Part shown: positions 29,714-60,209 of the stretch, one piece after another
Numbering within the stretch: the stretch's first letter is position 1
How the letters are laid out: each line of letters begins with the position of its first letter
Source of the DNA: a virus
Taxonomy: Duplodnaviria; Caudoviricetes
Length of the DNA: 64,000 bases
Reading direction: 5' to 3' (one strand)
Virus record (IMG/VR): IMGVR_UViG_3300037067_018912
Coordinates: 224,001 to 288,000 of that record
Notes under the pieces: generated by a model
The model's database searches: none
What the model saw: only the letters and a program-made list of their open reading frames with translations
What the model was told of the DNA's origin: nothing
Made by a program: the position numbers and the translations under genes

Positions 29714-29787
29714 AGTCCTGTAGTTTATACGGGTGTGAATGCCCCTGCGCACGGGGGTGGTTGCTGGTTCAAATCCAGTCAGGACTG
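29714..29787 (+). ncRNA. tRNA-like element with aberrant anticodon loop
   Basis: Acceptor AGTCCTG/CAGGACT, T arm GGTTCAAATCC, anticodon region CCCCT-GCGCAC-GGGGG. Confidence 0.65.
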
Positions 29788-29793
29788 CAAATC

Positions 29794-58458: not shown

Positions 58459-58719
58459 ATGAAAGATTTTCCAAGATTTTGGTTCGAAGGTAATTTATAC
58501 TTTGGTTGGGTAAATAACCTTGATGAATTAAATGTTGTGTTCGAATACTATAAAGAAGGTCATATGACCAAAGACGAAGTTCTCGACAAAGCGGTAAGTC
58601 TTGAAGATGAGGACAAGAGTGGAAAACACACGGAGTTTGGTTTAAGAATCGAACATCGGGGCAGCATGACCTTACGCCAATTCTTGGAAGAGAAAGGGGT
58701 TGACTATGGAAAAGAATAA
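58459..58719 (+). CDS. Hypothetical protein
   Basis: 86-aa ORF. Confidence 0.6.
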   Translation: MKDFPRFWFEGNLYFGWVNNLDELNVVFEYYKEGHMTKDEVLDKAVSLEDEDKSGKHTEFGLRIEHRGSMTLRQFLEEKGVDYGKE

Positions 58720-58903
58720 ACGGATGACGACAAGACAACTGTTTAAGGAATTCCTTGATTTTGCTTGCGAAATCGGCGGTGTCGTTTTGTACATTGGGGT
58801 GATCTTATGTGCCATTTCCTACAAGGCGTATGGGATTATCCCGGTTTGCGTGGCAGGTATTGCCTGCACGCTGTACACAACGCTTCGTAAGGGGTGTAAC
58901 TAA
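58706..58903 (+). CDS. Small membrane protein
   Basis: Two hydrophobic segments. Confidence 0.55.
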   Translation: MEKNKRMTTRQLFKEFLDFACEIGGVVLYIGVILCAISYKAYGIIPVCVAGIACTLYTTLRKGCN

Positions 58904-58906
58904 GAC

Positions 58907-58979
58907 GGTTCTGTAACTTAATCGGCTAAAGTAGCAGTCTCTAAAACTGTGTTTGCGGGTTCGAACCCCGCCAGGATCA
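58907..58979 (+). tRNA. Amber suppressor tRNA (CTA anticodon)
   Basis: Acceptor GGTTCTG/CAGGATC, GCAGT-CT-CTA-AA-ACTGT, T arm GCGGGTTCGAACCCCGC. Confidence 0.88.
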
Positions 58980-58995
58980 CCTATATATTTTTACA

Positions 58996-59310
58996 ATGAG
59001 TAGAACGAATAAAGACCTAAAAAGTCATAAAACAGGGATTGGCAGATATGGAAGAAAACCTCAAAGAAAACTCACTCCCTTTATTCATGATGCAAATAAA
59101 ATCGTAGGCAAAAATGAAGTTTTATCGTGCTTGCCTGACAACGATATTAAACAAGATGATTTCGAAAAGGGATATCATTGGCACAATGCAAAAGCAGTAC
59201 GTGCGATAAGAAAGAAAATCCGTGCCGAAAGGGGTTATGAAAAATCCAAAGCAAGGGGAAGAATTAAACAATTTGACAAAAAAATTTGTGAAACTCAAAA
59301 ATTTGATTAA
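58996..59310 (+). CDS. Basic hypothetical protein
   Basis: 104 aa, Lys/Arg-rich. Confidence 0.6.
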   Translation: MSRTNKDLKSHKTGIGRYGRKPQRKLTPFIHDANKIVGKNEVLSCLPDNDIKQDDFEKGYHWHNAKAVRAIRKKIRAERGYEKSKARGRIKQFDKKICETQKFD

Positions 59311-59365
59311 TTTTGTTCGCTCAAGTATTTATGTTTTTAAACATTAACAACTAAAATTTTTAATC

Positions 59366-59695
59366 ATGAGGTAGGTAAAATTAATAACAGTAACCCGTAA
59401 GGATTTAAAAGACGGTCAACAACTTGTGCAGACCGGGCATTCCATTGCCGAATTCGCACACAAGCATCCCGATCAATTCTCCGATTGGATGCAAAACTCA
59501 CAATATCTTGTTTCGTTATCGACCGATAACGAAGAGAATCTCACAGAAATGTACAATAAATTAAAGTACTATGGTGCTCATGTCGTTGCGTTCCATGAAC
59601 CCGACATTGGTAATCAAATGACTGCGATCTGTTATTTCGGTACGCCGGAGATGCGTAAATTCACACAGAAACTTGATTTGGCACTTAACTATTAA
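59366..59695 (+). CDS. Pth2-like (peptidyl-tRNA hydrolase II fold) protein with in-frame TAG at codon 3
   Basis: ATG AGG TAG GTA...: MR*VKLITVTRKDLKDGQQLVQTGHSIAEF...FHEPDIGNQMTAICYF. Confidence 0.7.
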
Positions 59696-59888
59696 ATTTT
59701 ATGGCCATGAAAGACACATAGTTCTCAAACAGACCACCATAATGATGAAATTCGCAATTTGCGAATCACGAATTGCGAAAAACTTCGTTACGCAAAATTG
59801 CGTAACGCTGTAATGCGTAATCTACGTAACGCAAAATACGTAACAAACAAAATGTAAATTACAAAATGTAACATTAATAAACATCATT

Positions 59889-60209
59889 ATGGAAACAATA
59901 GTTGAAATCAATATCAGCAAGATGAAGGCGGACATCAAGGAAAACGCCGAGAAGCAGAAATTCTACAGAAATCAAAGAAAAACCGAGAAATTGGTTGGCG
60001 AAAGGCAAATGCCTGCATGGGAAGCGACATATTCCCATCAAAAAAACAGAAGGAATTTGCGCATCATGTATGCCGCATACGGATTAGCCAAAGGAAAGAA
60101 TTTCTCTCAAATTGAAAATCATTATCCCGAAGAGAACCACCCGTTGAATGAATTACGGTATGAGATCGACAAGATGATGAATGAATACAAGGCCAAAGAC
60201 GGCGAATAA
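59889..60209 (+). CDS. Hypothetical phage protein
   Basis: 106 aa, RIMYAAYGLAKGKNFSQIE. Confidence 0.75.
   Translation: METIVEINISKMKADIKENAEKQKFYRNQRKTEKLVGERQMPAWEATYSHQKNRRNLRIMYAAYGLAKGKNFSQIENHYPEENHPLNELRYEIDKMMNEYKAKDGE

What the first reader, a model, noticed from the sequence alone, without database searches (positions are those of the whole stretch)
58907..59695. Amber suppressor tRNA next to a Pth2-like gene with TAG at codon 3
The CUA-anticodon tRNA lies about 390 nt upstream of ATG AGG TAG GTA AAA TTA..., in frame with the track ORF 59426-59695. The part before 59426 (KLITVTRKDL...QQLVQTGH) is the conserved N-terminal strand and helix of Pth2-like proteins, so the full enzyme appears to need readthrough. 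Long genes in the window have no internal TAG and several end in TAG, so the code is not globally reassigned. Inference: an amber-gated switch that makes a peptidyl-tRNA recycling enzyme only when the suppressor is expressed or RF1 activity is low.
Basis: partly seen in the sequence, partly recalled or inferred. Interest (0 to 1): 0.82.

Follow-up and report, generated by a model that had tools for sequence, protein, structure and literature searches.

The report
Stop-codon-locked phage Pth2 gene with key tRNA
A 357-kb phage that otherwise uses the normal genetic code keeps a UAG stop as the third codon of a small peptidyl-tRNA-hydrolase-like gene and carries a UAG-reading tRNA 384 bases upstream; over 100 diverged phage relatives keep this pairing, which gives the 'orphan' stop-reading tRNAs of standard-code phages a concrete target.

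Summary
A well-formed elongator tRNA with anticodon CUA lies at 58907-58981. At 59366 the frame reads ATG AGG TAG and runs on into a Pth2-fold ORF that ends at 59695. No ATG, GTG or TTG lies between the TAG and the invariant N-terminal strand.

The genome uses the standard code, and I found no other TAG-interrupted gene in it. Contigs from three studies, one a variant strain, carry the TAG.

Among 129 unique homologous loci, 109 have TAG as the first in-frame stop upstream. In 106 of these an ATG lies 10 or fewer codons before the TAG (codon 3 in 63). The base after TAG is a purine in 104 of 106. A tRNA-CUA lies within about 3 kb in 54 of 65 well-flanked gated loci.

A relative 92% identical in protein has TAA plus a tRNA-UUA instead, so stop and anticodon change together. 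Some relatives carry extra internal TAGs in this gene only.

I read it as a lock-and-key translational gate: the enzyme is made only when the phage suppressor tRNA works. Nothing here is experimental, and the inserted amino acid and the enzyme's substrate are unknown.

I found no published description. This scan has flagged the same module on many other genomes.

The parts
58907..58981 (+). Suppressor tRNA with anticodon CUA (the 'key'). It is an elongator-type cloverleaf of 75 nt, with a G1-C72 pair, discriminator A73 and anticodon loop CUCUAAA. The anticodon stem has no run of three G-C pairs.
   Evidence: ARAGORN; Rfam RF00005 at 61.2 bits, full length; fold
58996..59310 (+). Intervening 104-aa ORF of unknown function, basic, with no in-frame TAG. 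A homologue was found only in locus L030, so it is not a conserved part of the module.
59366..59695 (+). Full reading frame of the Pth2-like gene: ATG, AGG, TAG, then 106 sense codons and TAA. It gives a 109-residue product if the TAG is decoded.
59372..59374 (+). The 'lock': an in-frame TAG at codon 3, followed by G (GTA).
59375..59425 (+). The 17 codons (VKLITVTRKDLKDGQQL) that only read-through can deliver. They hold strand 1, the start of helix 1 and the invariant R8 and D10. None of them is ATG, GTG or TTG.
59889..60209 (+). Conserved downstream neighbour, a 106-aa helical protein starting MET(I/T), of unknown function. It follows the Pth2-like gene in 16 related loci. Those listed in full start at an ordinary ATG with no gate.

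Best explanation
This is a two-part translational lock and key. Ribosomes start at ATG 59366, in the A-rich leader without a Shine-Dalgarno motif that is typical of this phage. After two codons they meet UAG. If release factor 1 wins, a dipeptide is released and no enzyme is made. If the phage's own tRNA(CUA), encoded 384 nt upstream on the same strand, decodes the UAG, translation continues into a complete 109-residue Pth2-fold hydrolase. The enzyme is therefore made only when, and in proportion as, the phage suppressor tRNA is expressed, processed, charged and able to outcompete RF1. Putting the stop at codon 3 makes a failed attempt cheap. The purine after the stop is the context that favours tRNA over release factor in E. 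coli.

Shown by sequence comparison: the frame, the fold, the conservation of the lock, its linkage to the key, and the stop and anticodon changing together.

Inferred: actual read-through, the amino acid inserted (Gln or Lys are the usual fates of CUA tRNAs in E. coli; the internal TAGs align with E/Q/K/D/I residues), and the purpose. My preferred purpose is feed-forward coupling. A peptidyl- or aminoacyl-tRNA hydrolase would be supplied exactly when stop-codon read-through, with the aberrant translation products it causes, is active in the infected cell. This phage also encodes a tmRNA and 58 other tRNAs in the window.
For: (1) Anatomy of the site.
(2) The genome uses the standard code. Reading TAG as sense does not lengthen ORFs. 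Stops in a crude gene set are TAA 281, TGA 86 and TAG 22. No other gene is split by TAG or has an early TAG.
(3) The product has the Pth2 fold: pLDDT 97, TM about 0.8 to archaeal and human Pth2, profile E 1e-10. The part upstream of the first canonical start is structurally indispensable.
(4) Of 129 unique homologous loci from viral, metagenome and genome collections, 109 have TAG as the first in-frame stop upstream of the invariant Arg. In 106 an ATG lies 10 or fewer codons before it (codon 3 in 63, codon 4 in 12, codon 5 in 16). In 94 of 106 no ATG, GTG or TTG would keep the N-terminal strand. The gated loci fall into 51 separate clusters at 70% identity, with locus GC from 0.23 to 0.61.
(5) Control: of 893 other ORFs in the same loci, 1.7% have a TAG gate-like head. 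The ORF106 neighbour family has none in the loci listed.
(6) Linkage: among well-flanked loci, 54 of 65 TAG-gated ones have a tRNA-CUA against 5 of 14 ungated ones (Fisher p = 0.0007).
(7) Covariation: L079 has ATG AAG TAA GTA plus a tRNA-UUA. Its relatives L078 (92% protein identity) and L076 (83%) have TAG plus tRNA-CUA; L076's tRNA shares the acceptor and T arms with L079's. L061 also has TAA with UUA. L101 has TAG with UUA, which can wobble-read UAG.
(8) Ungated homologues align a sense codon where the TAG sits: M-A-T-I-K-E-G-D-K-L-Y against M-S-TAG-I-K-E-G-D-K-L-Y.
(9) L043, L049, L059, L033 and L157 have further in-frame TAGs inside this gene with homology on both sides. The flanks of the four loci tested show no more gain from reading TAG as sense than from the TGA control.
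(10) The base after the gate TAG is A in 65, G in 39, C in 2 and T in 0 loci. After the 22 TAG terminators of this genome it is a pyrimidine in 14.
(11) The TAG is present in three independent assemblies.
(12) Only 6% of this phage's genes have a Shine-Dalgarno-like motif, so the GAGG inside ATGAGGTAGG is not a ribosome-binding site for a downstream start.
Against: There is no expression, proteomic or aminoacylation evidence of any kind. The tRNA's amino-acid identity is unresolved: the nearest tRNA in this genome is Lys-CUU at only 71% identity, and across loci the nearest isotype is mixed, with Arg on top.

Eleven well-flanked gated loci show no suppressor within 3 kb (it may lie elsewhere on the contig), and five ungated loci do have one.

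In some relatives a canonical start follows the TAG closely. Examples are L007, L008 and L010; XacN1 has an ATG four codons later; Bxz1 has GTG immediately after ATG TAG, with a Shine-Dalgarno motif spaced for the GTG. In those phages the lock may be leaky or vestigial.

This genome ends 22 genes in TAG, so a strong suppressor has a cost.

The family lacks the GKGK lysines of canonical Pth2 and has a four-residue deletion in the DAGxT loop, so its substrate may not be ordinary peptidyl-tRNA.
Confidence: 0.75

Rival explanations
1. Start-stop mini-ORF with re-initiation. ATG-AGG-TAG is a two-codon upstream ORF that loads ribosomes. After termination at TAG they restart at the adjacent near-cognate codon (GTA here; ATT, ATA or GTT elsewhere). 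No read-through occurs, and the tRNA is merely a neighbour.
For: The codon after the TAG is ATT, GTA, GTT or ATA in 85 of 106 loci. These are all third-base variants of ATG or GTG. In Bxz1 a GTG with a well-spaced Shine-Dalgarno motif directly follows ATG TAG. A few loci have an ATG 3-5 codons after the TAG.
Against: This does not explain why the stop is TAG in 109 of 129 loci when TAA is the commonest stop. It does not explain why the stop switches to TAA exactly where the neighbouring tRNA reads UAA. It does not explain why internal TAGs with homology on both sides occur in this gene; four of those five are also followed by ATT, GTA or GTT, so that context goes with decoding rather than restarting. 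L043 and L034 have TAG directly followed by AAA and AGA. Ungated homologues align a sense residue at the TAG position.
Confidence: 0.07
2. Neutral ratchet. Once a phage lineage carried a suppressor tRNA, a TAG at a permissive N-terminal codon of one gene became tolerated and was inherited. Read-through is real but constitutive, and it has no regulatory or sensing role.
For: The module could have a single origin and be inherited vertically or moved as a cassette. The residue at the TAG position sits in a variable N-terminal tail. No function can be assigned to the coupling from sequence alone.
Against: The TAG sits at different codons (2 to 11). New TAGs arise repeatedly in this gene, while the flanks tested show no sign of TAG recoding. 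The 3' context is conserved. The lock survives a change of stop codon together with the key. In this 357-kb genome I found no other gene that has picked up a TAG. All of this points to selection for the stop in this particular gene.
Confidence: 0.12
3. Truncated or dead gene. The protein starts at GTG 59426, as an automatic gene call gives, or the gene is a pseudogene, and the upstream frame is open by chance.
For: Table-11 ORF finding gives 59426-59695. The pT24 annotation likewise starts downstream, at an internal ATG.
Against: A start at 59426 removes strand 1 and the start of helix 1, including the invariant R8 and D10. The 17 upstream codons are conserved at protein level in every homologue. 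The ORF is otherwise intact in over 100 lineages.
Confidence: 0.03
4. The phage reassigns TAG genome-wide (code 15, as in Lak and crAss-like phages), and this gene is just one recoded gene.
For: The phage encodes a CUA tRNA, and TAG is its rarest stop at 5.7%.
Against: Coding density is high under table 11 and is not improved by reading TAG as sense. Long ORFs are unchanged. Twenty-two genes end in TAG, and no other gene is interrupted.
Confidence: 0.01

Closest known systems
Stop-codon-recoded phages with phage-encoded suppressor tRNAs (TAG read as Gln, 'code 15'; Lak, crAss-like and others; Borges et al., bioRxiv 10.1101/2021.08.26.457843)
   Same: A phage tRNA with a stop-reading anticodon lets phage genes containing in-frame stops be translated in a standard-code host. 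Those authors propose that this times the expression of particular genes.
   Different: In those phages 26-71% of genes carry in-frame stops, mostly late and lysis genes, and coding density collapses under code 11. Here the genome uses the standard code and a single small gene carries one stop, at a fixed place (codon 3). The same gene family is locked in over 100 lineages. The preprint does not mention any hydrolase or Pth gene.
prfB (RF2) autoregulation through an in-frame UGA at codon 26 (established knowledge, not tested here)
   Same: An early in-frame stop in a translation-factor gene turns the competition at that stop into a control signal for the gene's own expression.
   Different: prfB escapes by a +1 frameshift, and its product is the factor that reads the stop, which closes a negative feedback loop. 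Here the escape is in-frame decoding by a dedicated tRNA, and it is unknown whether the product feeds back on stop decoding.
Orphan suppressor tRNAs of cultured standard-code jumbo phages, e.g. Xanthomonas phage XacN1 (PMC5852040)
   Same: XacN1 uses the standard code, carries many tRNAs and has two tRNA-CUA genes in each terminal repeat. Its authors read through the 18 amber-terminated genes in silico and could not identify targets.
   Different: XacN1 ORF364 carries the Pth2-like domain. It is preceded, in frame and 21 nt upstream of the annotated ATG, by a Shine-Dalgarno motif plus ATG AAG TAG. This gives a candidate target that lies in front of a gene rather than at its end.
Archaeal/eukaryotic peptidyl-tRNA hydrolase 2 (Pfam PF01981; PDB 2zv3, 3erj, 1q7s, 1xty)
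   Same: Same fold over the whole length (TM about 0.8). The R-x-D-L ... Q-x-x-H-A motif and the acidic residue before the last strands are conserved.
   Different: The consensus here is PGYQ (DGQQ in this phage) where Pth2 has GKGK. The DAGxTxxxxGT loop is shortened by four residues to EPDIGNQxT. No activity has been shown for this phage clade.
Lambda bar minigenes and other two-codon ORFs that cause peptidyl-tRNA drop-off in Pth-limited cells (recalled knowledge, not tested)
   Same: ATG-one codon-stop is exactly the minigene form. When the gate is not suppressed, it should release or drop off a dipeptidyl-tRNA, which is the substrate class of Pth enzymes.
   Different: Here the minigene is in frame with the hydrolase ORF and continuous with it, and it is paired with a suppressor tRNA. 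Whether drop-off plays any role is unknown.

Membership tests
Pth2 (PF01981) peptidyl-tRNA hydrolase family | Sequence match to the family model above the curated threshold | tested here: met
   Pfam PTH2 at 25.6 bits against a cut-off of 23, E 1.5e-5. A profile of 49 homologues against PDB Pth2 chains gives E 1e-10.
Pth2 (PF01981) peptidyl-tRNA hydrolase family | Pth2 alpha/beta fold over the whole domain | tested here: met
   AlphaFold2 model pLDDT 97.1. Foldseek top hits are 2zv3, 3erj, 1q7s, 1wn2 and 1xty, TM 0.77-0.82, probability 1.00.
Pth2 (PF01981) peptidyl-tRNA hydrolase family | Catalytic residues.
   R8, D10, Q19 and H22 are invariant, E75/D77 and T83 nearly so, and they align with conserved Pth2 positions. 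The GKGK lysines are replaced and the DAGxT loop is four residues shorter. The paper I read gave no Pth2 active-site residues.
Pth2 (PF01981) peptidyl-tRNA hydrolase family | Hydrolysis of peptidyl-tRNA | not testable with these tools
   This needs an enzyme assay.
Nonsense (amber) suppressor tRNA | Canonical tRNA cloverleaf with anticodon CUA in a 7-nt loop | tested here: met
   ARAGORN; Rfam 61.2 bits, model positions 1-71 of 71; loop CUCUAAA.
Nonsense (amber) suppressor tRNA | Elongator rather than initiator features | tested here: met
   G1-C72 is paired, and the anticodon stem GCAGU/ACUGU has no three consecutive G-C pairs (sequence). The initiator criteria are from established knowledge (cf. 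PMC6393288 abstract).
Nonsense (amber) suppressor tRNA | It is aminoacylated and decodes UAG on the ribosome | not testable with these tools
   Support is indirect only: the stop and anticodon change together (TAA with UUA in L079 and L061) and the tRNA is linked to the gate.
Genome-wide TAG reassignment (code 15 phages) | Many genes with in-frame TAG; coding density rises when TAG is read as sense | tested here: not met
Pyrrolysine system (ARAGORN's label 'tRNA-Pyl') | Atypical tRNA-Pyl architecture (short D loop, 3-nt variable loop; recalled knowledge) and pyl genes | tested here: not met
   The tRNA matches the general tRNA model end to end and has a 9-nt D loop. I did not search for pyl genes.
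prfB-type autoregulatory in-frame stop | Bypass by programmed frameshift, with the product acting on the same stop | tested here: not met
   The downstream ORF is in the same frame as the ATG. Whether the product feeds back cannot be tested here.

The most novel reading that the evidence does not exclude
The pair is a self-measuring circuit for stop-codon read-through or for the state of the phage tRNA pool. The suppressor tRNA would serve as a reporter that the phage's own tRNA set is expressed, matured and charged. The atypical Pth2-like enzyme would act on a specific tRNA species: the charged suppressor itself (negative feedback, a tRNA analogue of prfB control), the dipeptidyl-tRNA that drops off at the gate, or host tRNAs (an interlock that shifts translation to phage tRNAs only once they are ready).
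Probability: 0.15. Interest if true: 0.9.

Novelty: new variant of a known kind. Interest (0 to 1): 0.8.

Why it matters
Phage suppressor tRNAs are usually discussed in connection with genome-wide stop-codon recoding. Why standard-code phages keep them has been an open question, and the authors of XacN1 looked for targets and found none. A single conserved client gene, locked by the very stop that the tRNA reads, gives those tRNAs a concrete and testable target. It would be a natural one-gene genetic-code switch, and it ties stop-codon read-through to tRNA recycling.

It also has a practical consequence. Gene callers truncate or miss this gene (pT24 and this window are examples), and they label the tRNA 'Pyl' or 'other'.

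The module occurs in cultured phages: Tenacibaculum phage pT24, Xanthomonas phage XacN1, and Bxz1-type mycobacteriophages. The idea can therefore be tested at the bench.

Tried and rejected
- Genome-wide recoding was rejected.
- I searched the genome for other genes with an early or internal TAG. Only chance hits inside other ORFs or tRNA genes turned up. A similar search for early TGA found nothing convincing.
- A Shine-Dalgarno-directed non-canonical start after the TAG was rejected, because only 6% of this phage's genes have such a motif.
- An initiator-tRNA reading of the CUA tRNA was rejected on its stem features.
- The amino-acid identity of the suppressor is ambiguous. By nearest-neighbour comparison Lys-CUU is closest in this genome, but across 98 suppressors Arg-like tRNAs come top, with discriminator A in 59, G in 20 and U in 18.
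- Agrobacterium phage Atu_ph07 has an opal suppressor. Its only hit is a canonical Pth2 with a normal ATG and no in-frame TGA head.
- A search for the pattern CTCTAAA in five phage records was uninformative.
- A blastn search of the region against the phage collection gave no match.
- For the ORF106 neighbour, Pfam gave nothing, PHROGs only a weak hit (E 0.026) and the Atlas nothing. Its model (pLDDT 89) has no significant PDB match.
- No RNA holder was listed among the sequencing runs, so there are no expression data.
A narrower alignment, A3, worked.
- No ribozyme or other Rfam family lies near the tRNA, and there is no plus-strand terminator between the tRNA and the gene.
- Five literature searches found no description of this module.

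Full report
**What is in the window.**
The window lies at 224001-288000 of a single 357,275-bp contig with 40% GC. It holds 58 tRNA genes and a tmRNA in several arrays. After the last array comes a tRNA with anticodon CUA at 58907-58981 on the plus strand. Rfam's tRNA model matches it end to end at 61.2 bits. It folds as a normal cloverleaf with a paired G1-C72, discriminator A73 and anticodon loop CUCUAAA. Its anticodon stem lacks the three G-C pairs of initiator tRNAs. ARAGORN's label 'Pyl' only reflects the anticodon.

Downstream on the same strand lies a 104-aa ORF (58996-59310). Then the sequence reads ATG (59366) AGG TAG (59372-74) GTA AAA TTA ATA ACA GTA ACC CGT and runs open to TAA at 59693-95. 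The first ATG, GTG or TTG after the TAG is GTG 59426, which is where a table-11 ORF finder starts. I found no plus-strand terminator between the tRNA and the gene.

**The protein.**
The 106 residues after the TAG match Pfam PTH2 from residue 2, above the curated cut-off, and match PDB 2zv3. With an alignment of 49 homologues, AlphaFold2 gives pLDDT 97.1. Strand 1 is residues 2-8 (KLITVTR) and helix 1 is residues 13-30. Foldseek's significant hits are almost all archaeal and human Pth2 structures, at TM 0.77-0.82.

A start at GTG 59426 (residue 18) would remove strand 1 and the start of helix 1, including the invariant R8 and D10. The annotated short ORF is therefore not a plausible protein.

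The family is not a textbook Pth2. Where Pth2 has GKGK it has PGYQ (DGQQ in this phage), and the DAGxT...GT loop is four residues shorter, reading EPDIGNQxT. I therefore call it Pth2-like and leave its substrate open.

**Not a recoded genome, not an error.**
Reading TAG as sense does not raise coding density anywhere on the contig and leaves the long ORFs of the window unchanged. In a crude set of 389 ORFs the stops are TAA 281, TGA 86 and TAG 22. Searches for other genes with an early TAG, or for genes split by a TAG, found only chance hits inside other ORFs or tRNA genes.

Contigs from three sequencing runs in three studies carry the stretch. Two are identical (either may be the source of this assembly). 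The third is a variant strain with 14 substitutions at 58810-58888 and none in the tRNA or in ATG AGG TAG.

Only 6% of this phage's genes have a Shine-Dalgarno-like motif, and leaders are A-rich, as in Bacteroidota. The leader of ATG 59366 fits that pattern, so the GAGG inside ATGAGGTAGG is not a ribosome-binding site for some downstream codon.

**Comparative evidence.**
The first four homologues I opened were three 460-636-kb uncultured phages and the cultured Tenacibaculum phage pT24. All showed ATG, one or two codons, TAG, then ATT or ATA, in frame with the Pth2-like ORF. Only one (L001) has a GTG after the stop, and it lies inside the N-terminal strand.

I then collected loci from viral contigs, metagenome contigs and genome contigs. 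Each was anchored on the invariant Arg of the N-terminal strand. The results for 129 unique loci are these:
- The first in-frame stop upstream is TAG in 109, TGA in 11 and TAA in 9.
- In 106 of the 109 an ATG lies 10 or fewer codons before the TAG. The TAG is codon 3 in 63 loci, codon 4 in 12 and codon 5 in 16.
- In 94 of 106 no ATG, GTG or TTG would keep the strand.
- The gated loci form 51 separate clusters at 70% identity, and locus GC spans 0.23 to 0.61.

As a control, 1.7% of 893 other long ORFs in the same loci have such a TAG head, and their boundary stops are 48% TAA. Homologues without the TAG start at an ordinary ATG, and their N-termini align across the TAG position: M-A-T-I-K-E-G-D-K-L-Y against M-S-TAG-I-K-E-G-D-K-L-Y.

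**The key travels with the lock.**
Among loci with at least 1.5 kb of flank, 54 of 65 TAG-gated loci have a tRNA-CUA within about 3 kb, on the same strand in every case. Only 5 of 14 ungated loci do (Fisher p = 0.0007).

The stop and the anticodon also change together. L079 reads ATG AAG TAA GTA and has a tRNA with anticodon UUA 449 nt upstream. Its relatives L078 (92% protein identity) and L076 (83%) read TAG and have a tRNA-CUA; L076's tRNA shares the acceptor and T arms with L079's. L061 also pairs TAA with UUA, although its gene looks damaged downstream. L101 pairs TAG with UUA, which can read UAG by wobble. I saw no TAA gate paired with a CUA tRNA.

**Further signs that the TAG is decoded.**
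L043, L049, L059, L033 and L157 carry an additional in-frame TAG inside the gene, with homology on both sides. These TAGs sit at positions where relatives have E, Q, K, D or I. The flanks of the four loci tested show no more gain from reading TAG as sense than from the TGA control.

The base after the gate TAG is A in 65, G in 39, C in 2 and T in 0 loci, and the next codon is ATT, GTA, GTT or ATA in 85 of 106. Four of the five internal TAGs have the same context. From my own knowledge of E. coli genetics (Bossi 1983; Miller and Albertini 1983), a purine after UAG favours suppression. The 22 TAG terminators of this genome are followed by a pyrimidine in 14 cases, though that number is small.

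**How it most likely works.**
Ribosomes start at ATG 59366 and reach UAG at codon 3. If RF1 acts, a dipeptide is released. If the phage tRNA(CUA) acts, the full enzyme is made. Production therefore depends on the suppressor being made, matured, charged and competitive.

These steps are inferred from sequence comparison, and nothing is experimental. The amino acid inserted is unknown. The closest tRNA in this genome is Lys-CUU at only 71% identity, and across 98 suppressors the nearest isotypes are mixed.

The purpose of the coupling is also inference. I favour feed-forward supply of a tRNA-recycling activity whenever read-through is active. Negative feedback on the suppressor, or an interlock with the phage tRNA pool, remain open.

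**Rivals.**
- A start-stop mini-ORF with re-initiation at the following near-cognate codon fits the ATT/GTA/GTT pattern and the Bxz1 arrangement (ATG TAG GTG with a Shine-Dalgarno motif spaced for the GTG). It cannot explain the choice of TAG, the matched change to TAA and UUA, or the internal TAGs.
- A neutral ratchet, in which the TAG is merely tolerated because a suppressor exists, is hard to square with three things: the TAG moves between codons 2 and 11, new TAGs arise in this gene while tested flanks show no TAG recoding, and the context is conserved.
- The truncated-gene and code-15 readings fail direct tests.

**Cultured carriers and the literature.**
- XacN1's authors reported two tRNA-CUA genes in each terminal repeat and found no targets by reading through amber-terminated genes. 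Its ORF364, which carries the Pth2-like domain, is preceded in frame by a Shine-Dalgarno motif and ATG AAG TAG, 21 nt before the annotated ATG.
- pT24's gene is annotated from an internal ATG.
- Bxz1 gp154 is followed 300 nt later by a 'tRNA-OTHER' that ARAGORN reads as CUA.
- Five full-text searches and a reading of the phage-recoding preprint found no description of this module.

**Earlier notes of this scan.**
After I had formed this reading I looked up the scan's own notes. The same module has been flagged many times on other genomes, and those notes include the stop and anticodon changing together. They are unchecked AI notes.

**Verdict.**
This is a new variant of suppressor-tRNA-mediated recoding: a single-gene lock and key in a standard-code phage. 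It is not experimentally tested.

Noticed in passing
L022:2243, L034:508, L083:1715, L098:2106 (plus strand, 0.8-1.0 kb upstream of the intact Pth2-like gene): An HNH-endonuclease ORF is fused in frame to a duplicated copy of the gate (ATG..TAG) and the first 20 or so codons of the Pth2-like gene (KL.VITR.DL.PGYQAVQ...). In L022 it ends just before the intact gated gene. It looks like a homing endonuclease that copied the gene's locked 5' end.
   Followed up: partly
L009:1483 (plus strand): A different 190-codon ORF, 1.5 kb upstream of the Pth2-like gene, also begins ATG AAG TAG ATT with no start codon after the stop. It may be a second locked gene family. Gate-like TAG heads are also commoner than TAA or TGA ones among control ORFs (15/191, 13/432 and 4/270).
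   Followed up: partly
L043, L049, L059, L033, L157: These loci have second in-frame TAGs inside the Pth2-like gene, at positions where relatives have E, Q, K, D or I. Four of the five are followed by ATT, GTA or GTT.
   Followed up: yes
window 59889-60209 (+): A 106-aa helical protein starting MET(I/T) follows the Pth2-like gene in 16 related loci. It has conserved QRKT and YAAYG..RGK..SQIE motifs. It has no Pfam, Atlas or PDB-fold match.
   Followed up: partly
window 59720-59850: The intergenic stretch after the Pth2-like gene is full of short repeats (TTGCGAA, CGTAACGC). It contains a 22-nt palindrome, CGTTACGCAAAATTGCGTAACG, at 59786-59807, with no T-run on the plus strand.
   Followed up: no
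window 29714-29788 (+): ARAGORN reports a tRNA with a four-base anticodon (gcgc), isotype undetermined, inside the Asp/Glu/Val array.
   Followed up: no
G000:C1:159671-159745 (minus strand, outside the window): This is a tRNA-like gene with anticodon UCA and an A/U-rich acceptor stem, next to a tRNA-Met. I found no TGA-gated ORF in the genome. An earlier scan note (e1-5647685) reads this area as tRNA-mimic RNAs of a Ro60-like system, so it is probably not an opal suppressor.
   Followed up: partly
window 58810-58888: The variant strain in run X3 differs by 14 substitutions, all of them transitions, packed into 80 nt of the small ORF 58700-58903. It shows no differences in the part of the neighbouring 1.2 kb that its contigs cover.
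   Followed up: no
L160/L161 (Mycobacterium phage Bxz1, NC_004687.1 94750-95510): gp154 (Pth2-like) is annotated from a GTG that directly follows ATG TAG. The 'tRNA-OTHER' 300 nt downstream has anticodon CUA. About 200 cultured Bxz1-type phages matched the protein.
   Followed up: partly
G000, whole genome: TAG is the rarest stop (22 of 389 crude ORFs). When it terminates a gene it is followed by a pyrimidine in 14 of 22 cases, the opposite of the context after the gate TAG.
   Followed up: partly
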